IMG/VR virus record: IMGVR_UViG_2526164634_000010
Span: 1 to 31,230 of that record
Reading direction: 5' to 3' (one strand)
DNA: 31,230 nucleotides
Source of the DNA: a virus
Lineage: Duplodnaviria > Heunggongvirae > Uroviricota > Caudoviricetes
Shown: positions 656-11,189 of the stretch, piece by piece
How the letters are laid out: each line of letters starts with the position of its first letter
How positions within the stretch are numbered: the stretch's first letter is position 1
The notes under the pieces: model-generated
What the model was told of the DNA's origin: nothing
The model's input: the letters and a program-made list of their open reading frames with translations, nothing else
Databases searched by the model: none
Position numbers and translations under genes: made by a program

Positions 656-925
<270 letters not shown>

Positions 926-1124
926 TTACCGTTAAATCATTTTAAAATCAGTAAGTTGTATCGAGTTTGTATGCTTTACTGTCATTAACTTACTGTATGT
1001 TGATCCAGTGTATTTAACCTTGATAAACTCAGTCCAGCAACACTAAACCGCAACACATTGCATTTTGTCCCGTAGAAAAGACTTGTATGTGTGAGCTTGT
1101 TTTCTGCGCCTACGCAGATAAGGA

Positions 1125-2528
1125 TTGAGAATGCCGCGCACTGTAACACATAATCCGGATAGCCCCAATAATGACGATGTTTTAGCCGCTTCTGAAAAAT
1201 GGGACGCCTGTAAACCCCCCTATACTAGCGCACACATGAAAATCTGTGTTGCTGCCGCCAAAATCATCCTCGCTGCTTCCGGCGTGGCTCGCCGTTCCAA
1301 ATACGAAAAAGAGAACTATCTCCGTATCGATTTCAGCAAAGCCGGTAAGGTTACATTTTACGCCGAGTTTCCAAAAAAGATGGGCCTCAAAGGTAAAAAG
1401 CTCGGCGAGTGGCCGGAGCTCGCTATCCAGCTGGCGCGCGAAAAAGCGCTAGGTATGGCTGACGGTGGCCTGCGGGCAGAGTCCGTACATGCAGCGCTGG
1501 AAATGTACCGGGATGACCTCAAAGCCAAAGTCGCCCGGCAGAAGCTGAGCCCGGACAGTTTCACAACCTACGGGGTGCGTATCGACCGGATTAAAGCAAC
1601 GTTCGGCGAGCGCGAGGTGTTCAGCGACGTAACATACAATCGGCTGGTGGAAGTGCTGGACGAGTGGATCGCTACTCGCTCGAACAATAACGCCCTGGAG
1701 TTGTTTGCCGAGCTCCGTCGGTTCTGGAAGTTCTGCGCACCTACTCTTTGCAACGGCCGCAATGTTGCCGCCAGTCTGCCAGATGATTATGTTTCCTCCC
1801 GCGTACAGAAACCTACCCCCACACGGCTTTTTACCGATATTGAATCAATCGCCCGACTCTGGCTCAATGTTGCTGCCTGCACCTCTGTACACCAGAAGAA
1901 TGCTGTTCGCTTCATGATCATCACTGGTGTTCGTCCGATTAATGTCCATAACCTGCGCTGGGACTACGTTCACGAGGAGGCTGGTGAAATTGTTTATCCG
2001 GAAGGGGTTATCGGCATGCGAGGGGCTATGAAAACACAAAAGGCTTTCCGCCTGCCGATAACCCCTGAGATCCGGCGGATTATCGACGAGCAGAAAGCCT
2101 GGCGTGATTCAGTTCCTGAGTGCAACAGGGATTATGTATTTTTGCAGCCACGTGATCCAATGCAGCCATTTTCAAAACGATCACTGGATAAGCTGGTGAA
2201 AACATACAGCCCGGACGGGGCTGTAAAAGGAATAAAACATGATGGGACTGTTAAAGGGAAAGACGGTGCATTTAATACGATGTGCCGTAAATTCCTTAAG
2301 AGCAATGTTATTGCCTTGATGAAGGAAAGAGGCTATTCCCGCTCAGACCGAAGGGAAATCAGCCTCCTTTGCCTTCACCACTCCAGCAAGTCAGATGACC
2401 CGATGGCAGAACATTACGACTTTTCTGATGAGATTTTACAGGAAGAGATTGCGTTGAAGCGCGAAGCTTTCGAGGCTCACGAGCGGAGCATACTTGCGCA
2501 GGTGGCATTGCTACGGCGGCGAGGTTAA
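1125..2528 (+). CDS. phage tyrosine-type site-specific recombinase/integrase (divergent family)
   Basis: 467-aa ORF with AAGGA RBS 7 nt upstream; box I-like segment ITGVRPINVHNLRWDYV; box II-like C-terminus MCRKF...LLCLHHSSKSDDPMAEHY with Arg and terminal Tyr retained but the usual His residues substituted; first gene next to the host junction. Confidence 0.65.
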   Translation: MRMPRTVTHNPDSPNNDDVLAASEKWDACKPPYTSAHMKICVAAAKIILAASGVARRSKYEKENYLRIDFSKAGKVTFYAEFPKKMGLKGKKLGEWPELAIQLAREKALGMADGGLRAESVHAALEMYRDDLKAKVARQKLSPDSFTTYGVRIDRIKATFGEREVFSDVTYNRLVEVLDEWIATRSNNNALELFAELRRFWKFCAPTLCNGRNVAASLPDDYVSSRVQKPTPTRLFTDIESIARLWLNVAACTSVHQKNAVRFMIITGVRPINVHNLRWDYVHEEAGEIVYPEGVIGMRGAMKTQKAFRLPITPEIRRIIDEQKAWRDSVPECNRDYVFLQPRDPMQPFSKRSLDKLVKTYSPDGAVKGIKHDGTVKGKDGAFNTMCRKFLKSNVIALMKERGYSRSDRREISLLCLHHSSKSDDPMAEHYDFSDEILQEEIALKREAFEAHERSILAQVALLRRRG

Positions 2529-2725
2529 TACTGGCTGCGACATTTTTGAATAAAAGCGTCGATATTTCGGCGCTCATAACGAACTACTTTTGCACTGAAA
2601 CGAATTGGTGCCAGGATAGCCCGATGACGATGCTTAATATTCCACTCACATAGCGTTTTCTGTGTAATACCTAACTTTTGGCATACTTCATCCGGGGTGA
2701 GTAAATCGTCGGGTTTCTCGCTCAT
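2525..2725 (-). CDS. AlpA/Xis-like small HTH DNA-binding protein (excisionase or regulator)
   Basis: 66-aa ORF; motif LLTPDEVCQKLGITQKTLCEW resembles AlpA/excisionase-type HTH; start overlaps helicase stop, suggesting translational coupling; adjacent to integrase. Confidence 0.6.
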   Translation of the reverse strand: MSEKPDDLLTPDEVCQKLGITQKTLCEWNIKHRHRAILAPIRFSAKVVRYERRNIDAFIQKCRSQY

Positions 2726-4116
2726 GCTATACCTCTCTTTTTCATGGCATCGAGCAGGATGTCCTGCACTGTTCGTTTTGAGTTGCGCCGCTCCATCACC
2801 ATTTCATCCATAGTGTCGGCAGCAATAATGTGGTGAATAAATACCGGACGATTGTGTCCGGCCTGTATCTGCCTGGTGGGGCCGATACGTTCAATAATTT
2901 GCTGATATTGCTCCAGGTCCCACCAGTGTGAGAAAAATACCAGTATATTTCCGCCGTCCTGCATGTTCAGGCCGTGGCCCGCGCTGGCTGGGTGTGCAAA
3001 GAGAACAGGAATCTTTCCGGAATTCCAGTCGCGCAGTGTCTGTGGATCCTGGTCGAGGTGACGACCGCGAGGGAATGCTTTAAGCAAGCGTTCAAGATCG
3101 TGTTTCCAGTGATAAGCAACCAGCACAGGTGCGCCAGCTGCTTCGGTCAGTATGCTGTCCAGCGCCTGTAGTTTGGTGTCATGCAGTTCTGACCAACTTC
3201 CGGTGTCATCTGTGTATACTGCGCCGCTGGCGATTTGCAGACACTTCAGTGTCTTTGCCGCGGCGTTCGGTGCTTCGATGCCTTCGCCATTCAGCTCGAG
3301 GAACATTTCCTTTTCCATTTCACGATACTGCTGACGGGCCTTCGGTGGCATATCCACGCGGATTACGTTATGGATGGGGTCTTTGATATCGAACCAGTCG
3401 GCCGCATCCAGCGAGAGGGTTACATCGGCTAACGCTCGCTGTATTTCACCCTGTGAGTGAGCAAAAGGCTCCAGTTTGGTCCAGCTCTGCCCCGGAAACT
3501 GTATCGAGTTGAACCAGCGTGAGGTAAACGCGCCGTAAGTGCGCCCGAGACGTTGCCCCTGGTCCACAAACCACGATTGTCCCCACAAATCTACCAGGCC
3601 GTTCGGTGCTGGCGTACCGGTGAGATTTATCCAGCGCCGGACATACTTATGCGCCACTTTGCCCAGCGCCGCCGCGCGCTTACCACCACCGCGCAGCCGG
3701 AAGGATTTTAGCCGGGTGCTTTCATCTGGAATGACAGTACCGAACGGCCATCGTTCTCCCAATTCTTCAATCAGCCAGACAAGGTTATCGTAGTTGATGG
3801 TGAACACGCTTGCGTTGCTGTTCGTCAGCGCCATAGAGCGCGCTTTGGCATTACCAATAATTGGCTGCACCTCGATATTGCGCAAATGTCCCCACTTCAG
3901 TGCTTCATCCGGCCATGTGCTGGCAGCCACGCGCAGCGGCGCGAGGACCAGTGCGGGGCATGTTTCTGCCCCTGCCATAAAGAGATCTTCCAGCGCAGTG
4001 AGCGTTGCCACGGTTTTACCCATTCCCATACCCGCCCAGATGTTGCCGCGCAGAATGTTAGTTTGGTGATTGATTATGAGGTTTTGATAAACTCTGGGGT
4101 GGAATATGCTATTCAT
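2722..4116 (-). CDS. SNF2-family DNA helicase / ATPase (phage replication)
   Basis: 464 aa; Walker A AGMGMGKT; DExx-type motif II VIPDESTRL; AGGTG RBS upstream of ATG at 4116. Confidence 0.85.
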   Translation of the reverse strand: MNSIFHPRVYQNLIINHQTNILRGNIWAGMGMGKTVATLTALEDLFMAGAETCPALVLAPLRVAASTWPDEALKWGHLRNIEVQPIIGNAKARSMALTNSNASVFTINYDNLVWLIEELGERWPFGTVIPDESTRLKSFRLRGGGKRAAALGKVAHKYVRRWINLTGTPAPNGLVDLWGQSWFVDQGQRLGRTYGAFTSRWFNSIQFPGQSWTKLEPFAHSQGEIQRALADVTLSLDAADWFDIKDPIHNVIRVDMPPKARQQYREMEKEMFLELNGEGIEAPNAAAKTLKCLQIASGAVYTDDTGSWSELHDTKLQALDSILTEAAGAPVLVAYHWKHDLERLLKAFPRGRHLDQDPQTLRDWNSGKIPVLFAHPASAGHGLNMQDGGNILVFFSHWWDLEQYQQIIERIGPTRQIQAGHNRPVFIHHIIAADTMDEMVMERRNSKRTVQDILLDAMKKRGIA

Positions 4117-4127
4117 TAATACACCTA

Positions 4128-4136
4128 TGGTAGAAT
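4128..4136 (+). promoter_or_regulatory. candidate extended -10 promoter (TGgTAGAAT) for the low-GC gene at 4180
   Basis: tggtagaat at 4128-4136 matches the extended -10 form TGnTATAAT at 5 of 6 hexamer positions; strong RBS ACGGAGG 7 nt before the ATG at 4180. Confidence 0.3.
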
Positions 4137-4179
4137 ATGGTCACTTCTCTCTCTATATATATAACTAACGGAGGCGGGT

Positions 4180-4977
4180 ATGCCCCTGGCGAAAATATTT
4201 ACAAAGCAAGTTTCTTTATTAACTATGTTTTCAGCGTTAGCTTATGCGATGGCATATTCTTTTCAGAAAGGTGTTGCATCGTATTATGGCTATCCAGACC
4301 TTTTTATTAAAATAGACTTAAATACGCTATTGTATTCGGCTGTGTGGCTTTTGTTTTTTAGTTTTTTATTTCTCGGCGCCTTATATGCGGCGTTGATGTT
4401 TGATTTGAAAGGGAAATATTATGTTCCATTTATTGTATTTATAGTTGTTATGCTAATGGCTAATATTTGTATAATAGGATTTCATTGGCCTTTTGGTTAT
4501 TTCTCCGAAACTTCTGTGATGAGTGTTCAGGATATTTTATTATTTGCTATGCTTTTGTTGAATTATCACAATGTGGTGTCCATGCCAATCCATAGTAAGA
4601 GACACGAACATCATATGGAGAGCATTAGAAAATTTGGGAGGCTTGCAGAGTATAAGAACGTATTTTATTATATCGATTTAAAAATCCTAAAGTCAGCTTT
4701 TCCTTTAGGGGTGATAACGTTGTTGATATTGAGCTATACATTCGGGAAGGTTACTGCATTTAAAAATAACGAATATTATATGGTAGATGGTAGTAATACT
4801 AAAGTGTTGCTCAATTCATTTGGTAGTGGTTTTGTTGTTGGTGATTGTGAGTCAAATAGCGCAAAATTTGAATTTGTTAATGATTTAAAAGGGATGAGAT
4901 TCACAATCATGTCCTCTAAAAAGGAAATAGCTAAATTAAAAGGGTGTTTCGAAATACGTGTTAAAAATACGGATTAA
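4180..4977 (+). CDS. low-GC moron: hypothetical multi-pass membrane protein with soluble C-terminal domain
   Basis: 265-aa ORF, markedly AT-rich versus flanks; several hydrophobic segments in the N-terminal half; no family recognised; opposite strand to the surrounding operon; own RBS. Confidence 0.6.
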   Translation: MPLAKIFTKQVSLLTMFSALAYAMAYSFQKGVASYYGYPDLFIKIDLNTLLYSAVWLLFFSFLFLGALYAALMFDLKGKYYVPFIVFIVVMLMANICIIGFHWPFGYFSETSVMSVQDILLFAMLLLNYHNVVSMPIHSKRHEHHMESIRKFGRLAEYKNVFYYIDLKILKSAFPLGVITLLILSYTFGKVTAFKNNEYYMVDGSNTKVLLNSFGSGFVVGDCESNSAKFEFVNDLKGMRFTIMSSKKEIAKLKGCFEIRVKNTD

Positions 4978-4989
4978 AGCATAAGTCTT

Positions 4990-5277
4990 TTATCCTTTAT
5001 TGCGGCTTAAAATAATGGCCTCCAGATTTTTGCTATCCAGCACCACTACGGTAAAGCCCAGCGCGCGCAACCGTCCGTGTTCGCGCAACTGGTCAGGCCG
5101 TGGTGGCTTGCCGGGGGATTTACATTCAACGAAAATGATACGACCGCCGGGTAGCAGAACAATGCGATCTGGTACCGAGCGGCGACCGGGGGATACGAAC
5201 TTAAAGGCAACCCCGCCAGCCTTTTTTACTTCAGCGACGAGGTGCTTTTCGATTAGGTTTTCACGTTCATAGGCCAT
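4990..5277 (-). CDS. VRR-NUC domain nuclease
   Basis: 95 aa; pattern FKFVSPGRRSVPDRIVLLPGGRIIFVECKSPGKPPRPDQLREH fits the VRR-NUC (PD-(D/E)xK-like) signature; start overlaps the upstream small gene. Confidence 0.75.
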   Translation of the reverse strand: MAYERENLIEKHLVAEVKKAGGVAFKFVSPGRRSVPDRIVLLPGGRIIFVECKSPGKPPRPDQLREHGRLRALGFTVVVLDSKNLEAIILSRNKG

Positions 5278-5471
5278 TAGCTTTCGCCTTCCTGCTTTTT
5301 GCGTTTCTTCATGCAGATAGCGCAGTTCTCAGGATGGTCATGCCATTCATCAATCCTGATACCTATGAACATCCATTTTCCGCATAGTGATATGGCTTCC
5401 CCCGAATTAAAGAAATGTGCTTTTTTTGACAGAGCGGGGAACCCCCAACCCTTATTATCGATATTAGACAT
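5277..5471 (-). CDS. small Cys/His-rich (probable Zn-binding) phage protein
   Basis: 64 aa; strong RBS AAGGAGGTG before ATG at 5471; residues C29, H45, H47, C51, C54; translationally coupled to VRR-NUC. Confidence 0.5.
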   Translation of the reverse strand: MSNIDNKGWGFPALSKKAHFFNSGEAISLCGKWMFIGIRIDEWHDHPENCAICMKKRKKQEGES

Positions 5472-5598
5472 CGTCCACCTCCTTACGCTTTTCGCGCATG
5501 TTCTGCATCAGACAAAAATCAAACCGACGTTCGCTTTGGCCCAGACCTGCATCGCCCGGTCGTACCCGCCGGACTGTTCAAGGTGCAAAGCCTCCCGC

Positions 5599-5623
5599 AC
5601 AGTCCGGTAATAAAGCGGACTGT
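5599..5623. promoter_or_regulatory. perfect 8-bp inverted repeat acagtccg-N9-cggactgt (candidate operator or RNA hairpin)
   Basis: Palindrome read from sequence in the 235-bp non-coding gap between the TIR-like gene terminator and the small Zn-protein gene; next to an AT-rich tatttaaat element. Confidence 0.3.
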
Positions 5624-5659
5624 CCCGGTATTTAAATGACATAGGGTTTTTATTCCCAA

Positions 5660-5685
5660 ATAAAAAACCCCGCGATGCAGGGTTG
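5660..5685 (-). terminator. intrinsic terminator after the TIR/SLOG-like gene
   Basis: On the minus-strand RNA: CCCUGC-AUC-GCGGGG hairpin (one G-U pair) followed by UUUUUU; immediately 3' of the ORF ending at 5706. Confidence 0.5.
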
Positions 5686-5705
5686 TAATCAACAATAAGG
5701 GGTAA

Positions 5706-6467
5706 TTACGAGGAAGCGTTAGCTATTTGAGCTTGTGTAAATTCGAAACCAGAATTTTGTAACCGTTGCACTAGACGAGGAACTGTTTCACGTACATGGT
5801 CGTTGAAATTCAGATACAAAATCCCGTTAGCATCAGAAGGCTGTTCTAGGTGCTGTTTCTGAAGGATTGCTACATTGCTGCGCCCTAAGGACGAAAGAAG
5901 CATACCCATCTCGAGTACAACGTTCTGTCTTGCGCGGGGTTGGATTTCTGCTTCACCGGCGCGCTTTGAGTATCCCATATCATCAGGTGTCAAAAGAACA
6001 ATCCCGAAACGGGTAGCAGTTTGTCCTTGCCCAATTTCACGTTCAAGCTCTTCAATAATGGTGAGTCCAGTCCCTCCCGTATTCTGCAAAATGAAATGGT
6101 CTGGTAATCCAAGTTTATGAAGGATTAGCTCAAGTTGCTCCTTTGCAGTATGGTCATGGCCGTGAACAATGAATATCTTTTTGGGGAGCTCAGATGGCTG
6201 TTCTACGGCTAGTGGTGTTGCCGTGGGCGGCGTTCCTAAATGGGTCATTATTGCAGTTTCAACATTGGGACGTTCTTGAGGGTTACCTTGAAACTGAATG
6301 GTCCGGGTGGTGTAAAGGTTAACAATTACGCCATTCGTTAAACGATAGCAGTCACAAGTCTCACGCTGTTCGTGGGAAAAATTGGTGAACCCACACTCCC
6401 TCAAAAAGTCAGGAAAAGTTTCTCTCGGGTATGGATAGGTGATCGGCATTTCAGTTAGTTCCTGCAT
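5706..6467 (-). CDS. two-domain protein: unknown N-terminal domain + C-terminal TIR-like/SLOG-like Rossmannoid nucleotide-processing domain
   Basis: 253 aa; C-terminal half has KKIFIVHGHDH (strand-1 motif of TIR-like COG4271-type proteins), GGTGLTIIEELE (LOG/SLOG-like) and RQNVVLEMGMLLSSLGRSNVAIL (xNVxxExG motif); N-terminal ~95 aa unrecognised; AGGAA RBS; cotranscribed downstream of the DNA polymerase gene. Confidence 0.6.
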   Translation of the reverse strand: MQELTEMPITYPYPRETFPDFLRECGFTNFSHEQRETCDCYRLTNGVIVNLYTTRTIQFQGNPQERPNVETAIMTHLGTPPTATPLAVEQPSELPKKIFIVHGHDHTAKEQLELILHKLGLPDHFILQNTGGTGLTIIEELEREIGQGQTATRFGIVLLTPDDMGYSKRAGEAEIQPRARQNVVLEMGMLLSSLGRSNVAILQKQHLEQPSDANGILYLNFNDHVRETVPRLVQRLQNSGFEFTQAQIANASS

Positions 6468-6531
6468 AAGTATTGTTCCTTTAATTTACTCGAATTCAGC
6501 ATGTCGCCATAGCTCGATAAGGTGAGTTATA

Positions 6532-8595
6532 TCAATCTTTTTTGTAGTGGTACGCCTCAAAACCGCCAGCGTTCAGTGGGATATCGGGCGCCCATTCGGG
6601 GTCAGTGGAGAGAAGCGCGGAAAGCGCTTTATCGTTGAAATCTTCTGTGTCAGGTGCTTCGGTGATCACCTCGTTGTGTACCGTCAGCACAATGCTGTAA
6701 CCGGCATCTTCGATAAGCGGCATGTTTCCGGCCAGAATGTCGCGGGCGGCCGCCTGGGTGATGTTCTCCACCAGCTTTCCGCCGTAGGTTTTGAGTCGTT
6801 GCCATTTACGCGAATAAGAGTTAACCCCCATGTAGGTGATATTCCCTTTTTCGATAACCGGAGACGGGTAGCATACAGCGCGTCCGGATGGTAGCTGTAT
6901 GCGCAGCCACGCGCCATCGCGGCGGATTTTAAGATAACCGCAATACAATGTTTTTTGCGGTGTGGCGATTGCAGTGCGGACGGTGCGCTCCAGTTCGTAC
7001 CAGAAATCACAGGTCGCGGGATGCGCCCGGCGCCAGAGACGTTTAAGTGAGTCGCAGGCGATAAATACCCGTTCAGAAAGCCCGTAGGTTGACTTGCGTT
7101 TAACCGATTCGTCGTACCAGCTTTTCGCCTCGCGGATAACATCGCGGGGAATGTTTGGTAGTGCGGCGTTCGCCAGCTCGTCGAGATCGAGACCGTAAAC
7201 CAGTGCAAAAGTGATGAAGGCCGACACACCACCACCATAACCCAGACCGAGTTCCATGACTTTACCGATCTGACGCATGTGTTTATCAACATCATCTGGT
7301 GCAATATCGAAAGCTTTTGCATACGCCAGTTTATATAAGTCCGGACCCGTTCCGGCGTCGTACTCTCTGAATGCATTCAGTTTCCATTCTTCTCCCGCCA
7401 GCCATGCCAGCATACGGCCTTCAATGTTCGACAAGTCACTTACCACCAGCTTTTTGCCTGTTGGCGCGATAATGCAGCCACGTAACGCTGAACTGGTTAG
7501 TTCCATGATATTGTCAAACAGCAGGTCTGCACATCCGGCTTTCAGTGCTTCGATGCCTTCGTCTATTTGTTCCTGTTTTAGTGAAGGGCGGGGAAGGTTC
7601 TGGGGCTGGAATAGCCGTCCGGCCCAACGACCGGTACGTGACGCCCCGCAGAACTGTAGCGTACCGCGTAAGCGCCCGTCGTGGCTTACGCCTTTCATCA
7701 GTGCCTTGTATTTACTGGTGCTGGTAGTACTGGCCTGCAGGCGGATAGCCAGCAGTTCTTTCACGGCAGATGGTAAATCGGGGTCGGCAATACGACGTTC
7801 CAGAGTACTGCGTTGCATGTCTGGTAGCTCCACACCGTAGGATTCAACAATGTGCTTAATCAACGCGTCTCGTTGTGTGGCTGCCTGCACTTCGCCATCA
7901 GTCATTTCCTGTGTACGCTTTGCCAGGCGCTTTTGTTCCTGGTCTACCGCGTCGATCGCAGCGCGTGCGAGTTCCACGTCCATGCAGACGCCCCGGTCAT
8001 TGATCTGCTGATCACGATGCCAGAGCGCCAGTTCTGTCCCCTGATAATTCCACTTCGGCAGACGTTTATAGACTTCGCGCATTGCCTCGATATCCAGTCC
8101 GGCGTAAGCAACAAAGCGCCGCCATTCTTCCGGGTGGGTTTTGCTGGTGGCCCGGCGCAGTTTGCTGTTTTTCGGGCGTGGCTTACAGAACAGCTGGATC
8201 AGCGCTTTACCTTCTTTGTCCTTCGCTTTGTCTTGCGGGACGCCTAGTACTTCGCAGAGTTCCCCCAGAGACCCCGGGAGACCGTGCGCCAGCGCCTGCA
8301 CCATTGTGTCGCGCCAACGTTCGACTGGCGGTGCCAGGCGCGGCATTGCATAACGCAGAACGGTGCGGTCGAAGTGAGAGTTATGGAAATAAAGCAGGGT
8401 TTCAGGGTCTGCGATTGCTTCGTATAAGCCGTGTGGAATACCACCACCGGCAGTGATATCCCACACGTTTACTGGCCCGTCGTTGATAGCCCATGCGAAA
8501 AGCATCACTTCAACGCCTTCGGCATACGCATGGGTACCGTTCGTAATAGGGATTTCGCAATAGGTTTCCAGGTCGCCCCATAGTATATTGGACAT
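6532..8595 (-). CDS. family A DNA polymerase with N-terminal 3'-5' exonuclease domain
   Basis: 687 aa; exo motif GDLETY; pol motif [16 protein letters not shown] (RxxxKxxxxGxxYG); motif C-like VHNEV. Confidence 0.9.
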
Positions 8596-8641
8596 GTGTT
8601 TACCTTGGTTTTTATTCTATTAACTGATTAAAAGATTAATT

Positions 8642-9271
8642 ATGCATATGATCCAATACTTGATTGACCATACAGAGCATCTGGAGAAAATAGCTGGATA
8701 TATTTTTTCATGTTTGATTGTTATGGGAGTCTGGATAAGAAAGATCATTTTTAATTATAAGTATAAAGAGCCTAAATATGTTAAGAAGTTAATTTTATAT
8801 TTAGTTAAGTATGAACGTTATCTGGATGAGGAGGATAAGAGTGCCATAGAAAAAAGAATAAATGATAAAATTATTCGTGATGCGCTGAAATTGCAATCAT
8901 CTTATAACCGAAGAGATGTTATTTACATTTGCAATAGATTAGAAAAAAGACAGTATATAAATCAGTTGATTAAGCTTCAGAATTATATAGAGAAAGATAA
9001 CGGAGTGTTTTTTATTAATGTTGATTTTTCAGGTTTTTTATTTATTATTAGTCGTCTGTTTTCCTTTCTGTGTTTTGTGCTGTTTACCCTTTTTTCTATT
9101 ATCTGCATTATTTCCATAGGGCAAAATGAAGGCCTTTTAAATTATCTTGTGTATATGGTTATGATAATAGTTTTAGAGACTGTTGGTTTTTGGATGTATG
9201 ATACTTTCCCGTCTAAGAAAAAGATCTGTGAACTAAATAAAGAATTGAGAAAGATTAAGATTCCTGAGTGA
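8642..9271 (+). CDS. low-GC moron: hypothetical membrane protein
   Basis: 209-aa ORF, very AT-rich; hydrophobic N-terminal segment and two C-terminal hydrophobic segments around a Lys/Glu-rich region; opposite strand to flanking replication genes; no family recognised; start uncertain (ATG 8642 or 8648). Confidence 0.5.
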   Translation: MHMIQYLIDHTEHLEKIAGYIFSCLIVMGVWIRKIIFNYKYKEPKYVKKLILYLVKYERYLDEEDKSAIEKRINDKIIRDALKLQSSYNRRDVIYICNRLEKRQYINQLIKLQNYIEKDNGVFFINVDFSGFLFIISRLFSFLCFVLFTLFSIICIISIGQNEGLLNYLVYMVMIIVLETVGFWMYDTFPSKKKICELNKELRKIKIPE

Positions 9272-9274
9272 TTA

Positions 9275-9297
9275 TACGCCTAATCAGTAGCCCGGTG
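9275..9297. other. stem-loop between convergent genes (cccgg-N7-ccggg)
   Basis: Inverted repeat agcccggtgtttaaccgggc read from sequence; no T-run on either side. Confidence 0.3.
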
Positions 9298-9323
9298 TTT
9301 AACCGGGCGTCTATGAAGTAGGG

Positions 9324-9872
9324 TTAAATTAGTGCTTCAGCATCAGCACCTTCGCTGATATCGTCGAAATCGTCAGCGCTTGCCACTCCGCCGCCAGCGA
9401 ATGCATCGCCGTCTCGCAGGAACTGGACTCCGCCGAGTGAGGCATTAATGCGTTTACCGAAATTATTGTCCTGTGCCCAGATATCGATAACGGCGTTTAC
9501 ATAGCACCCTGCATAGGGACGTCCGTCAGCCTGAATAAGTGGCGAACGATCGCGATCAAGAACAGCTGGGCGCGCTTTGTTAGCAGCATTCAGGAAGAAA
9601 TTACCGGGGAAGCCTTCATACTCTGCTTTTTCATCACCATCATGCAGGCACAGATTGAGTTTTTTCTCCAGCTGGTTATAAATGGGCTCCCACTTCTCTC
9701 CCCATTTTTCCTTCGCTACCTGCTTCATAGCTTTACGGATTTCTTCCAGTTGTGGGTGTTTGGGAGACATTAAAAATACTGCGGAGAAACGCGGATCGCC
9801 TTCGCCGTTTACAGTTTTAGCTTCAAACAGAGACGGGAAGGCCAGACGAACATTGTTCAGCTTCAGTTTCAT
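9324..9872 (-). CDS. DUF2815-like phage protein (possible ssDNA-binding role)
   Basis: 182 aa; position next to a DUF2800-like nuclease and family A polymerase matches a recurrent phage replication module; family assignment from memory, not searched. Confidence 0.5.
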   Translation of the reverse strand: MKLKLNNVRLAFPSLFEAKTVNGEGDPRFSAVFLMSPKHPQLEEIRKAMKQVAKEKWGEKWEPIYNQLEKKLNLCLHDGDEKAEYEGFPGNFFLNAANKARPAVLDRDRSPLIQADGRPYAGCYVNAVIDIWAQDNNFGKRINASLGGVQFLRDGDAFAGGGVASADDFDDISEGADAEALI

Positions 9873-9887
9873 GGGTATTTCCTTAAA

Positions 9888-11189
9888 TCAGATGAGGTCT
9901 GCGGTTAGCGTATCGTCGGATACGTCGTCGAAATCATTTACAGGGTTGATATTGAGTGCGGGGCGTGGGTCTGACTCGGGAATGACGGTTGGTTTACCAT
10001 CAGCTCGTGTTATCAGTGCCTCGACTTTTGACCAACGGCGTGGACTGGCCTTTTTGATAAGTTTTTCGGCTTTTGTGGGACTAATAAGTTTAAAGTCGAA
10101 TACTTCTTCAGTTTTGTACCTGAACTGGTCCTTCAGAAGTGCGCGAGCTGCCTCTTCATCACTCCAGGCCCGGTTACCTTGTTTTCCTGTTACCAGTTTA
10201 AACCCCGGTACCGGATGTCCGGCATTGAGTTCATTGTGAACCCGGTCCCGTACTGCCTTTAGCCAGGATTCAATAAAGTCGGCCTGGCTATAGATCTCCG
10301 CAAGCTGCTCAATGGTTAACAGAGGTACACGTGCGCTGGCATTGGTGATTATTTCGCTGACAGGCTTTGTCAGATCTTCAAAATCGCTGGCCGCTGTTTG
10401 TAAATGCTGCATTTTCTGGGCAGTGCAAATAGCTTTTGCTTTACAGAAGCGGCACTGTTTTTCTCCAGGTATGAAGTTTTCCAGCGGTAGTGTCTCAATG
10501 CCTTCGCATTCAGCAATATTGAGAACAAGGATCGCACTGGTTGCGGCCTCCTGTGCCCGTTCACCGAAAGACTGAAGTTCCTGTACGGTTAACGACCATT
10601 CTGAAACGTGGTTGAGCCTTGGCTGGTGAATAAATAATCTTACAGTCTCAAAGTCATACAGCATGCTGAATTGTTCGAGCGCACCCAGAGCATACAGTTG
10701 TAGTTGCTCATTTTGTTCTGCATCAATGCGGACGCCTTTGCCATATTTCAGGTCGTGGATTTGTAATTCGTTACCAGCGATGATTATGCCGTCGGCAGTT
10801 CCGAAAGATTCTTCCACCCCCGTTATATGTGAGAAATCAACACGTTGTTCAACCAATAGTTCATTATTCTGTGCAAGAGTCCAGACCGTATCAACATACC
10901 GGCCAACGGCTTCGACCATTTCATCATCCACCTGTGGGCCAGATGTATCATCAGGATTTTCGCGAAGGGGGTATGAGCCGAGAAACATAGAAACATTGCA
11001 TCCGGCGTAGTGTTCCGGGTGGCTTTGCCTGTTTCGTAGAACTTTTTCAGCAAGCGCGTGCGCTGCAGTGCCCTCGATTGCAAAAGTTGTTTCTTTATCC
11101 GGTTGTGTGGCCTCCAGCGCCAGACTTCCTGGGCAGCGCATCCATCGATGCGCTGATGATGGAGAAAGTTGTGCATGAACGTCTGGCAT
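9888..11189 (-). CDS. DUF2800-like PD-(D/E)xK nuclease with C-terminal Cys cluster (Cas4/RecB-like)
   Basis: 433 aa; N-terminal [15 protein letters not shown] signature; Cys cluster [10 protein letters not shown]. Confidence 0.65.

What the first reader, a model, noticed from the sequence alone, without database searches (positions are those of the whole stretch)
8596..9323. Second low-GC membrane-protein moron, antisense between the DNA polymerase and DUF2815-like genes
A second, unrelated AT-rich gene (209 aa, N-terminal and C-terminal hydrophobic segments around a Lys/Glu-rich region) is inserted on the opposite strand at another gene junction of the same operon. Two independent low-GC, opposite-strand insertions at gene boundaries suggest this replication module is a hotspot for accessory cargo. 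Only 46 bp separate it from the polymerase start codon, so its promoter must overlap the polymerase 5' end.
Basis: partly seen in the sequence, partly recalled or inferred. Interest (0 to 1): 0.5.

Follow-up and report, generated by a model that had tools for sequence, protein, structure and literature searches.

The report
Prophage cargo gene for membrane protein
This is a real, AT-rich accessory gene for a small three-helix inner-membrane protein of an unstudied family, sitting in a swap-in/swap-out cargo slot of an E. coli prophage where sibling phages carry known anti-phage genes, so it is most likely a new phage-exclusion protein, though nobody has tested it.

Summary
Window 8642..9271 (+) is an intact 209-codon ORF at 29% GC (window 50%). 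It fills the gap between the DNA polymerase start codon (8595) and the DUF2815/Enc34-type SSB stop codon (9324), antisense to the replication operon.

The window is an inducible E. coli prophage beside yfhL. The polA/SSB junction is a true cargo hotspot. Of 159 complete E. coli genomes with the flanks, 67 carry this gene. Siblings carry instead a SIR2 protein (PADLOC PDC-S25), Nmad5, BRO-N, other small proteins, or a 199-aa protein that is a remote homologue (about 18% identity).

The protein belongs to a tiny uncharacterised family (PHROG 10579; 10 hits among 1.84 billion representatives) under purifying selection. Predicted topology is N-out, with a roughly 93-aa cytoplasmic helical domain, a TM2-TM3 hairpin and a conserved cytoplasmic C-terminal helix.

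Relatives are always solitary. They sit in other accessory slots: P2-like and lambdoid prophages, an ICE-like contig, a Septu/RM island, and the Xenorhabdus chromosome.

There is no homology to SieA, SieB, TolQ or PADLOC systems, and no informative fold match.

Best reading: a lysogen-expressed, single-gene anti-phage membrane protein. The function is inferred, not shown. It is not linked to the first moron or to the TIR gene.

The parts
8596..9323 (.). Variable cargo cassette: the whole interval between the polA start codon and the DUF2815/SSB stop codon.
   Evidence: blastn homology with sibling prophages L002 and L004 stops at 8595/8596 and resumes at 9324. With L003 it resumes at 9290. GC is 0.27-0.29, against about 0.55 in the flanks.
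8642..9271 (+). CDS for a 209-aa predicted inner-membrane protein (WP_000551017.1; PHROG 10579).
   Evidence: The N-terminal 27 residues are conserved in homologues, which supports the 8642 start. dN/dS is 0.23-0.37 within E. coli.
8690..8752 (+). Codons for predicted transmembrane helix 1 (aa 17-37).
   Evidence: Hydropathy. AF2 helix 11-37. The short N-terminus is net-negative family-wide, which implies N-out.
8753..9031 (+). Codons for the roughly 93-aa Lys/Arg-rich, predicted cytoplasmic domain: four helices and a beta-hairpin (aa 38-130). It carries most of the conserved residues (for example R90 and I125).
   Evidence: AF2 with 23-sequence alignment, pLDDT 77.6. Charge count is 409 K+R against 248 D+E across the family. 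Conservation.
9032..9205 (+). Codons for the TM2-TM3 helical hairpin (aa 131-160 and 165-188) with a 4-6 residue turn. It holds a conserved basic residue (R138) and, in most clades, an acidic residue (E179).
9215..9250 (+). Codons for the C-terminal cytoplasmic amphipathic helix (aa 192-203), which holds the only family-invariant residues (N199, L202).
   Evidence: muH 0.55.
8589..8618 (+). Candidate sigma-70 promoter for the cargo gene (TGGACA, 18 nt spacer, TATTCT). The -35 overlaps the polA start codon.
   Evidence: This is a weak consensus match, and match frequency here is not above shuffles. It is a candidate only.
8603..8606 (-). Shine-Dalgarno (AAGG on the - strand) for polA, supplied by the cassette.
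   Evidence: Read directly from the sequence. Each alternative cassette brings a different sequence here.
9290..9308 (.). GC-rich 7-bp hairpin between the two convergent stop codons, with no U tract on either strand.
   Evidence: Fold z-scores are -2.9 (+ strand) and -3.5 (- strand). No terminator was called. The SIR2-carrying sibling L003 shares it.
6532..8595 (-). Family A DNA polymerase gene. This is the conserved left flank of the slot.
   Evidence: PF00476.
9324..9872 (-). DUF2815 / Enc34-type ssDNA-binding protein gene. This is the conserved right flank of the slot.
   Evidence: PF10991 Enc34_ssDNA-bd.

Best explanation
**What it is.** A self-contained accessory ('moron') gene occupying a recombinational cargo slot of a temperate polA/SSB/VapE-type E. 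coli myovirus.

**What it encodes.** A roughly 24-kDa inner-membrane protein. Predicted topology: short periplasmic N-terminus, TM1, a roughly 93-aa cytoplasmic helical domain, a TM2-TM3 hairpin, and a cytoplasmic C-terminal helix.

**Proposed function.** The protein is made in the lysogen from its own promoter and protects the cell, and with it the prophage, from other phages by acting at the inner membrane. [quoted passage not shown]

**Proposed self-protection.** On induction, leftward early transcription must run antisense through the gene to reach polA. This would be expected to shut the gene down.

**What is shown and what is inferred.**
- Shown: the gene is real and under purifying selection; it is swappable cargo in a hotspot that also holds defence genes; it is always solitary; the protein is predicted to be membrane-embedded.
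- Inferred: expression in the lysogen, the anti-phage role, the point of action, and the antisense shut-off.

**My probabilities.**

| Claim | Probability |
|---|---|
| Real cargo gene in a hotspot | about 0.95 |
| Anti-phage role of any kind | about 0.55 |
| Entry-block (Sie) type specifically | about 0.35 |
For: 1. **The gene is real.** A 215-codon open stretch compares with a maximum of 146 in 2000 shuffles, and dN/dS is 0.07-0.37 in three clades. Full-length homologues exist at 23-44% identity.

2. **It is cargo in a hotspot.** The flanks occur in 159 complete E. coli genomes and this insert in 67, with breakpoints at the polA start and the SSB stop. The same slot elsewhere holds:
   - SIR2 = PADLOC PDC-S25, E 7e-157;
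   - Nmad5 plus small proteins;
   - BRO-N;
   - a 199-aa remote homologue (hhalign probability 96.6%, E 6.6e-10, 190 columns, 18% identity), also in a Klebsiella aerogenes prophage.

3. **Relatives are solitary and sit in other accessory or defence contexts.**
   - The S-V gap of P2-like prophages.
   - Upstream of Q in a lambdoid prophage, beside GAPS4-type PDDEXK, HD/dGTPase-like, methylase/HNH and PRTase-CE genes.
   - Antisense between PAPS-reductase and RecT genes.
   - An ICE-like contig.
   - A Serratia integrase island beside a PtuA/PtuB-like pair and a type I R-M S subunit.
   - A CP4-like island.

4. **The function is not tied to phage replication.** The gene is conserved at one chromosomal site across the Xenorhabdus genomes examined (dN/dS 0.07). 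It is still intact in ETEC H10407, where the prophage's polA and SNF2 genes are broken.

5. **Topology is consistent across 23 members** and agrees with the AF2 model (pLDDT 77.6).

6. **It parallels P22 SieA.** SieA is a small inner-membrane protein with three predicted TM helices, encoded opposite to the neighbouring operon. Its allelic types are under 30% identical, and it has a conserved cytoplasmic C-terminal motif (PMC10883804; P22 map).

7. **The prophage is a live phage.** Three sequenced virion genomes carry the gene at 98.6% identity.
Against: - There is no experimental or transcript evidence of any kind, and no paper mentions the protein.
- There is no homology to any known Sie, Abi or defence protein: PADLOC has no hit for this protein, and hhalign against P22 SieA and SieB gives probability below 1%.
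- Guilt by association is weak evidence. The same slot also carries non-defence-looking cargo (Nmad5, BRO-N).
- Almost nothing of the protein faces the periplasm (8-19 N-terminal residues and a 4-8 residue turn), and the conserved parts are cytoplasmic. This fits an intracellular sensor/effector (Abi) at least as well as an entry block.
- Long-term vertical retention in Xenorhabdus is unusual for a defence gene.
- The gene is dispensable. It carries a nonsense mutation (E63*) in O55:H7 DEC5B and a frameshift in EPEC C342-62 (P0002).
- Promoter and terminator are not convincingly predicted.
Confidence: 0.4

Rival explanations
1. Abortive-infection membrane effector. The cytoplasmic domain and C-terminal helix sense a phage product or a state of infection. 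The TM2-TM3 hairpin (with R138 and E179) then oligomerises to depolarise or permeabilise the inner membrane, killing the infected cell before phage release.
For: - The conserved residues and the bulk of the protein are cytoplasmic, with minimal periplasmic exposure.
- Polar or charged residues are conserved inside TM2 and TM3.
- It shares its slot with SIR2 and sits near TIR and Septu-like genes, which are Abi-type systems.
- Rousset et al. 2022 note that transmembrane proteins in known systems are believed to be suicide effectors (PMC9122126).
- P22 sieB is similarly embedded antisense in the early-left operon.
Against: - Known membrane Abi effectors usually need a separate sensor (RexA/RexB, CBASS, retrons; own knowledge). 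This gene has no conserved neighbour in any context.
- There is no similarity to SLATT, RexB or other effector models.
- E179 is not conserved in the 199-aa clade.
Confidence: 0.2
2. Lysogenic-conversion or host-fitness membrane factor unrelated to phage defence, for example stress tolerance, envelope modification, colicin or toxin immunity, or niche adaptation.
For: - There is stable vertical retention at one chromosomal site in the Xenorhabdus genomes examined, with strong purifying selection.
- It is retained in a decayed prophage.
- No defence-family homology was found.
- Morons encode varied functions (own knowledge: lambda bor and lom).
Against: - The gene recurs in slots and islands dominated by defence genes.
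- Extreme allelic divergence at the same slot (18% identity) is typical of arms-race genes.
- It is found in only 1.2% of complete E. coli genomes.
Confidence: 0.2
3. A gene that serves the phage's own life cycle, for example a membrane anchor for replication, a lysis-timing regulator, or a lysogeny/induction modulator. Alternatively, its main effect is regulatory, through antisense transcription across the DUF2815-polA junction.
For: - It lies inside the replication operon, 46 bp from polA, and is convergent with the SSB gene, so its transcription could modulate polA expression.
- The cassette supplies the polA ribosome-binding site.
Against: - Sibling phages replace it with unrelated genes or with none of this type.
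- Homologues sit in unrelated phage modules (P2 tail genes, upstream of lambdoid Q) and in non-phage chromosomal sites.
- Protein-level purifying selection rules out a purely RNA-level role.
- It is not in the lysis cassette, and the holin match is insignificant (E 0.37).
Confidence: 0.1
4. Membrane effector partner of the TIR-domain protein encoded at 5706..6467, a split TIR + TM system flanking polA. This would resemble the TIR + TM system of P2-like phage AC1.
For: - The TIR protein (PADLOC PDC-S35, E 7e-109; Pfam CAP12/Pycsar-effector TIR) lies 2.2 kb away in the same prophage.
- A validated TIR + transmembrane system exists in a P2 hotspot (PMC9122126).
Against: - Co-occurrence is not obligate. 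The TIR gene is in 37 genomes and the membrane gene in 67, so at least about 31 genomes have the membrane gene without this TIR. Strain Rb-50 has the TIR with SIR2 instead.
- None of the homologue loci examined shows a TIR neighbour.
Confidence: 0.04
5. Spurious ORF, or a decaying remnant with no function.
For: - It is an AT-rich orphan-like sequence with a weak Shine-Dalgarno.
- It is inactivated in two strains.
Against: - ORF length is far beyond chance, and dN/dS is well below 1 in three independent clades.
- The architecture is conserved across genera.
- It is intact in the 7 other copies translated here, 6 E. coli loci/contigs and phage 611R5, and PGAP annotates a hypothetical protein under the match in 59 of the 60 listed genomes.
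Confidence: 0.01

Closest known systems
P22 SieA (superinfection exclusion A; PMC10883804)
   Same: - It is a small, prophage-encoded, solitary inner-membrane protein with three predicted TM helices.
- It is encoded on the strand opposite to the adjacent operon (P22 map).
- Its allelic types are under 30% identical, and a short conserved motif is predicted on the cytoplasmic side near the C-terminus.
   Different: - There is no detectable homology (hhalign probability 0.3%).
- SieA is 162-164 aa and lacks a roughly 93-aa cytoplasmic domain between TM1 and TM2.
- SieA's FxRYPxEAxxFNK motif is absent here.
- SieA's function is demonstrated; this protein's is not.
P22 / lambda SieB
   Same: It is a lysogen-expressed exclusion gene embedded antisense within the early-left operon, with its own promoter. 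The genomic logic is the same as for this gene.
   Different: - There is no homology (hhalign probability 0.1%; no Pfam SieB hit).
- SieB has a different size and architecture.
- SieB acts as an abortive-infection function with a phage-encoded self-escape (esc). No such partner is seen here.
Phage morons in the sense of Juhala/Hendrix and Cumby et al. (for example HK97 gp15, lambda bor/lom)
   Same: It is an extra gene between two genes that are adjacent or differently filled in relatives. It has deviant base composition and is transcribed independently of the surrounding operon. HK97 gp15 is a membrane Sie protein (own knowledge).
   Different: The promoter and terminator are only weakly predicted here, and there is no sequence relationship to any characterised moron.
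Defence hotspots of P2-like phages and P4 satellites (Rousset et al. 2022, PMC9122126)
   Same: A fixed inter-gene position in a temperate phage family carries mutually exclusive, highly diverse, low-GC cargo, including SIR2 and TIR proteins and transmembrane proteins.
   Different: - The phage family is different (polA/DUF2800/DUF2815/VapE myovirus at yfhL) and so is the slot (inside the replication operon).
- Cargo here is usually one small gene, often antisense.
- None of the cargo at this slot has been tested.
TolQ / ExbB / MotA-type stator proteins (and ZorA)
   Same: The coarse topology matches TolQ/ExbB: N-out, TM1, a large cytoplasmic domain, a TM2-TM3 hairpin with an acidic residue in TM3, and a cytoplasmic tail (own knowledge of TolQ/ExbB).
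   Different: - There is no sequence or profile similarity (hhalign against TolQ probability 0.3%; no PF01618 hit).
- Foldseek matches to ZorA and ExbB are insignificant (E 2-4.5, TM 0.2-0.3).
- There is no TolR/ExbD-like partner gene.

Membership tests
PHROG 10579 (unknown function) | Significant match to the family HMM over its full length. | tested here: met
   E 2.9e-108, profile positions 1-182 of 182 on residues 28-209. 22 of 23 family members match. The profile lacks the first 27 residues, which are nevertheless conserved in homologues.
Phage moron | Gene present between two conserved genes, and absent or replaced in closely related phages. | tested here: met
   Flanks are 97-99% identical in siblings whose insert differs completely.
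Phage moron | Base composition distinct from the surrounding genome. | tested here: met
   GC is 0.289 against 0.50-0.55. Homologues are 28-32% GC (one at 40%), each below its own locus, whose remainder is 41-54% GC.
Phage moron | Own promoter and terminator (autonomous transcription unit). | tested here: inconclusive
   One 9/12 sigma-70-like match lies at 8589-8618, but such matches are not enriched over shuffles, and no intrinsic terminator is called. A stable hairpin without a U tract lies at 9290-9308.
Phage moron | Expressed from the repressed prophage. | not testable with these tools
   Needs RNA-seq or 5' RACE of a lysogen.
P22 SieA family | Sequence homology, including the FxRYPxEAxxFNK motif. 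| tested here: not met
   hhalign of family alignment A3 against P22 SieA gives probability 0.3%. The motif described in PMC10883804 is not in the sequence.
P22 SieA family | Inner-membrane protein that blocks phage DNA injection. | not testable with these tools
   Only a predicted three-TM topology is available.
SieB (Pfam PF14163) | Sequence homology. | tested here: not met
   hhalign against P22 SieB gives probability 0.1%. Pfam gives no hit.
Known or candidate anti-phage systems in PADLOC-DB v2 | Match to any system component HMM. | tested here: not met
   No hit for the window protein at E up to 10. Among 23 relatives, only one (P0010) matches PDC-S47, and weakly (E 4e-4, residues 18-94); one matches a SLATT model at E 0.085. 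These are leads only.
MotA/ExbB/TolQ (PF01618) | Sequence or profile similarity and a TolR/ExbD-type partner. | tested here: not met
   No Pfam hit. hhalign against E. coli TolQ gives probability 0.3%. No partner gene appears in any context.
Holins | Match to a holin family and location in the lysis cassette. | tested here: not met
   The best holin PHROG match is E 0.37. The prophage's lambda-family holin, endolysin and spanin genes lie elsewhere (L001 29149-30478).

The most novel reading that the evidence does not exclude
PHROG 10579 is a previously unrecognised family of stand-alone, single-protein inner-membrane immunity factors that move between cargo slots of unrelated mobile elements: polA-type, P2-like and lambdoid prophages, ICEs and defence islands. 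In this reading, a conserved cytoplasmic domain and C-terminal helix recognise a phage component, and a TM hairpin executes exclusion. The two allelic types at the same prophage slot, under 20% identical, are products of an arms race and have different phage specificities.
Probability: 0.4. Interest if true: 0.55.

Novelty: new member of a known kind. Interest (0 to 1): 0.4.

Why it matters
**A ready candidate.** If the protein is an exclusion or defence factor, it adds a new single-gene membrane family to the anti-phage repertoire. It comes with natural allelic series for specificity mapping: the 209-aa and 199-aa types in the same slot, and homologues in P2-like and lambdoid phages.

**A new hotspot to mine.** It also defines a new defence/cargo hotspot, the polA/SSB junction of a widespread E. 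coli and Klebsiella prophage family. This hotspot could be mined in the way P2/P4 hotspots were. About 3% of complete E. coli genomes carry the slot (159 of 5426). Several other cargo proteins there are uncharacterised (89 aa, 229 aa).

**Clinical strains.** The gene is present in well-studied pathogens (ETEC H10407, O103:H2 12009, O55:H7 CB9615) and could affect their phage susceptibility, which is relevant to phage typing and therapy.

**If it is not defence-related,** it remains an ordinary prophage moron of unknown function.

Tried and rejected
- **Direct family assignment.** Pfam, NCBIfam and PADLOC gave nothing meaningful for the protein or its 22 relatives. Only PHROG 10579, of unknown function, matched.
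- **Structure route.**
  - The single-sequence AF2 model was poor (pLDDT 55). With a 23-sequence alignment it reached pLDDT 77.6.
  - Foldseek against PDB and BFVD gave no hit with E<0.001.
  - The AFDB library was unavailable.
  - A PDB sequence search returned only TM-bias hits at E about 1.
- **Homology to P22 SieA, P22 SieB and E. coli TolQ.** Rejected by hhalign.
- **Cryptic similarity between the two low-GC genes of the window.** Rejected (probability 1%). The first gene is instead related to a 195-aa protein in its own slot in a sibling prophage (30% identity).
- **Functional coupling to the first moron or the TIR gene.** Rejected as obligate by co-occurrence counts.
- **Non-coding features.** No Rfam family in 8300-9600 and no intrinsic terminator.
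- **Literature.** No paper mentions WP_000551017, the vB_EcoM-611R5 phage or PDC-S47. DUF2815/DUF2800 papers concern unrelated phages.
- **The search for related loci with the full family alignment.** It failed because the sequences were too divergent. The 4-sequence subset worked.
Full report
**1. Observation**

The region holds an intact ORF at 8642..9271 on the + strand: 209 aa, ATG start. It lies between the start codon of a family A DNA polymerase gene (6532..8595, - strand) and the stop codon of a DUF2815 gene (9324..9872, - strand). That leaves 46 bp on the polA side and 52 bp on the other.

GC falls from about 0.55 in the flanks to 0.27-0.29. The ORF is 28.9% GC, against 50% for the window and 54% for polA.

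The ORF is far longer than chance allows. The longest open stretch in 8596-9323 is 215 codons. In 2000 shuffles of the same composition the mean was 62 and the maximum 146.

RefSeq annotates the same ORF as the hypothetical protein WP_000551017.1.

**2. Where the window comes from**

The window is 100% identical to a prophage of E. coli FDAARGOS_1059 integrated next to yfhL. Its genes include:
- a tyrosine integrase;
- a leftward early operon: DUF2800, DUF2815, polA, TIR, ANR, VRR-NUC, helicase;
- a LexA-like repressor, a VapE primase and a Q antiterminator;
- a lambda-type lysis cassette and myovirus structural genes.

Pfam now names DUF2815 'Enc34_ssDNA-bd', an SSB. Three sequenced virion genomes (vB_EcoM-689R2, -611R5, -606R2) carry the gene at 98.6% protein identity, so this phage type is inducible.

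**3. The slot is a cargo hotspot**

The polA and DUF2815 flanks occur in 159 of 5426 complete E. coli genomes. The insert occurs in 67, always single-copy and chromosomal.

Homology with siblings ends exactly at the polA start codon (8595/8596) and resumes at the DUF2815 stop (9324), or at 9290 in one case.

| Cargo in the same slot | Strand relative to the window |
|---|---|
| 199-aa protein | + |
| 199-aa protein plus BRO-N | + / - |
| SIR2 protein, matching PADLOC PDC-S25 at E 7e-157 | - |
| 89-aa two-TM protein plus Nmad5 | + / - |
| 229-aa protein plus Nmad5 | + / - |
| BRO-N protein alone | - |

Each cassette replaces the whole intergenic space, including the polA ribosome-binding site.

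The TIR gene just downstream of polA (5706..6467) matches PADLOC PDC-S35 at E 7e-109 and Pfam's CAP12/Pycsar-effector TIR.

**4. The protein and its family**

Pfam, NCBIfam and PADLOC give nothing. PHROGs gives family 10579, function unknown (E 2.9e-108).

A word-indexed search of 5.8 billion clusters found only E. coli copies. An exhaustive HMMER scan of 1.84 billion representatives found 10 proteins with E<1e-3. These are about 210-aa proteins at 25-43% identity, aligned end to end.

A profile search added a Xenorhabdus clade. It also added a 199-aa clade from E. coli, Klebsiella aerogenes and Enterobacter.

The 199-aa protein that occupies the same slot in sibling prophage L002 is a remote homologue. 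hhalign gives probability 96.6% and E 6.6e-10 over 190 columns at 18% identity. So two very diverged alleles of one family alternate at one position.

Conservation in the 23-sequence alignment:
- N199 and L202 are invariant.
- M1 (the start codon), R90, I125, I195 and K204 are nearly invariant.
- A basic residue in TM2 (R138) is kept.
- E179 in TM3 is kept in all but the 199-aa clade and two further members (P0010, P0011).

**5. Selection**

| Clade | dN/dS (Nei-Gojobori) |
|---|---|
| E. coli copies, pairs with dS of 0.025 or more | 0.16-0.41 |
| E. coli copies, closest pairs (2 or fewer synonymous differences, not informative) | 0.47-1.67 |
| P2-like prophage clade | 0.14-0.19 |
| Xenorhabdus (dS saturated) | about 0.07 |

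The gene is inactivated in two strains: E63* in O55:H7 DEC5B and a frameshift in EPEC C342-62 (P0002). It is therefore dispensable.

It is intact in ETEC H10407, whose prophage has a frameshifted polA and an SNF2 gene with an internal stop.

**6. Architecture**

Hydropathy and the alignment-based AF2 model (pLDDT 77.6, pTM 0.55) agree on these elements:
- helix 11-37 (TM1);
- four helices and a beta-hairpin in residues 44-125;
- helices 132-160 and 165-188 (TM2 and TM3), joined by a 4-residue turn;
- a C-terminal helix at 192-202.

Charge counts across all 23 members:

| Segment | K+R | D+E |
|---|---|---|
| N-terminus | 33 | 57 |
| Central domain | 409 | 248 |
| C-terminal tail | 121 | 59 |

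By the positive-inside rule this gives N-out, with the central domain and tail in the cytoplasm. Almost nothing faces the periplasm.

No fold search gave a specific match:
- Foldseek against PDB and BFVD gave no hit with E<0.001.
- The insignificant Foldseek list includes ZorA and ExbB. The coarse topology recalls TolQ/ExbB, but hhalign against TolQ gives probability 0.3%, no PF01618 hit exists, and there is no partner gene.

**7. Contexts of relatives**

All relatives are solitary with no shared neighbour. All are 28-32% GC (one is 40%), lower than the rest of their loci (41-54% GC).

| Context |
|---|
| Between gpS and gpV of P2-like prophages, kept in six related elements |
| Just upstream of Q in a lambdoid prophage, beside GAPS4-type PDDEXK, HD/dGTPase-like, methylase/HNH and PRTase-CE genes |
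| Antisense between PAPS-reductase and RecT genes of a phage early region |
| ICE-like contig with TraG |
| Serratia integrase island beside a PtuA/PtuB-like (Septu) pair and a type I R-M S subunit |
| CP4-like island in Enterobacter |
| Small integrase islet |
| Same polA/SSB slot in a Klebsiella aerogenes prophage |
| Xenorhabdus, near Tn3, HicA and phage remnants |
| One fixed chromosomal site upstream of thrS in the Xenorhabdus genomes examined |

**8. Partners?**

The first low-GC gene (4180..4977) is unrelated (hhalign probability 1%). It is found in only 17 genomes, against 67 for this gene. Phage 611R5 has the second gene without the first.

The TIR gene is in 37 genomes, 31 of them shared. 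At least about 31 genomes have the membrane gene without it, and strain Rb-50 has TIR with SIR2 instead. The gene therefore has no obligate partner.

**9. Transcription signals**

The only sigma-70-like match upstream is TGGACA (8589-8594), an 18-nt spacer, then TATTCT (8613-8618). However, the number of such matches in the region (5) is what shuffles give (4.3 +/- 2.0).

No intrinsic terminator is called. A 7-bp GC hairpin at 9290-9308 is more stable than shuffles (z -2.9 and -3.5) but has no U tract. It is shared with the SIR2-bearing sibling. No Rfam family matches.

The early operon must be transcribed antisense through the gene to reach polA. By inference, prophage induction should suppress the gene.

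**10. Interpretation**

Shown:
- The gene is a real, selected, horizontally mobile, solitary gene for a predicted three-TM inner-membrane protein.
- It sits in a slot where sibling phages carry defence-type cargo.

Inferred: it is a lysogen-expressed anti-phage protein.

The closest functional analogue is P22 SieA. SieA is a 162/164-aa inner-membrane protein with three predicted TM helices. It blocks DNA injection, has allelic types under 30% identical, and has a conserved cytoplasmic C-terminal motif (PMC10883804). It is encoded opposite to the neighbouring operon. There is no homology to SieA or SieB.

An abortive-infection effector is the main rival, because the conserved parts are cytoplasmic. 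A non-defence host-fitness role cannot be excluded, given the stable Xenorhabdus copy.

My estimates:

| Claim | Probability |
|---|---|
| Real cargo gene in a hotspot | about 0.95 |
| Any anti-phage role | about 0.55 |
| Entry-block type | about 0.35 |
| Abi type | about 0.2 |

**11. Novelty and score**

The kind is known: a prophage moron or candidate exclusion gene in a cargo hotspot. The family is uncharacterised and the hotspot is undescribed in the literature searched.

It is a good experimental candidate rather than a surprise. Interest is 0.4.

Noticed in passing
window 5706..6467 (-): A TIR-domain protein is encoded inside the replication operon just downstream of polA. It matches the PADLOC candidate single-gene system PDC-S35 (E 7e-109) and Pfam's CAP12/Pycsar-effector TIR (E 2.9e-31). 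It is present in only 37 complete E. coli genomes, so it is a third variable cargo position in this module.
   Followed up: partly
window 4180..4977 (+): The first low-GC antisense gene encodes a 265-aa multi-TM protein with no Pfam, NCBIfam or PADLOC hit. It is in 17 genomes. It is 30% identical to a 195-aa multi-TM protein occupying the same helicase/VRR-NUC slot in sibling prophages (L005 2640..3227). That slot therefore also holds diverged alleles of one family.
   Followed up: partly
L003 (E. coli Rb-50) 1464..5923: A TIR protein and a SIR2 protein (PDC-S25; also weakly ThsA-like) flank polA in one prophage. The arrangement resembles a split Thoeris-like pair, although each matches a 'single-gene' PADLOC candidate.
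   Followed up: no
window about 8822-8845 (codons 61-68 of the ORF): Amino-acid differences among E. coli alleles cluster at residues 62, 63 and 67 (D62N, E63K, E63*, S67K), in the acidic turn between the first two cytoplasmic helices. This may be a specificity patch.
   Followed up: no
L050 (ETEC H10407) 657..6954: The H10407 copy of the prophage is decaying: the SNF2 gene has an internal stop and polA is frameshifted. The 209-aa ORF remains intact.
   Followed up: partly
window 5464..5642 (-) (= L001 17065..17243): The ANR-family regulator gene downstream of the TIR gene is annotated as frameshifted in this prophage and in Rb-50. It is intact in siblings that lack the TIR gene.
   Followed up: no
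L004 6253..6522 and L005 6258..6947: Two other uncharacterised antisense cargo genes sit next to the polA start in sibling prophages: an 89-aa two-TM protein and a 229-aa soluble protein. The 229-aa protein has no Pfam, NCBIfam or PADLOC hit; the 89-aa protein has no NCBIfam or PADLOC hit and was not scanned against Pfam. Each is paired with a same-strand Nmad5 gene.
   Followed up: no
L007-L009 (Xenorhabdus) about 10001..10639: A 212-aa family member is fixed between an SLT/cupin gene and thrS-infC-rpmI-rplT-pheST in the Xenorhabdus genomes examined (X. cabanillasii, X. innexi). Its GC is 30%, against 41% for the locus. It looks like a domesticated copy under strong purifying selection.
   Followed up: partly
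window 9290..9308: A GC-rich 7-bp hairpin without a U tract lies between the convergent stop codons. The otherwise different SIR2 cassette shares it, so it may be a junction or RNA-stability element of the backbone rather than of the cargo.
   Followed up: partly
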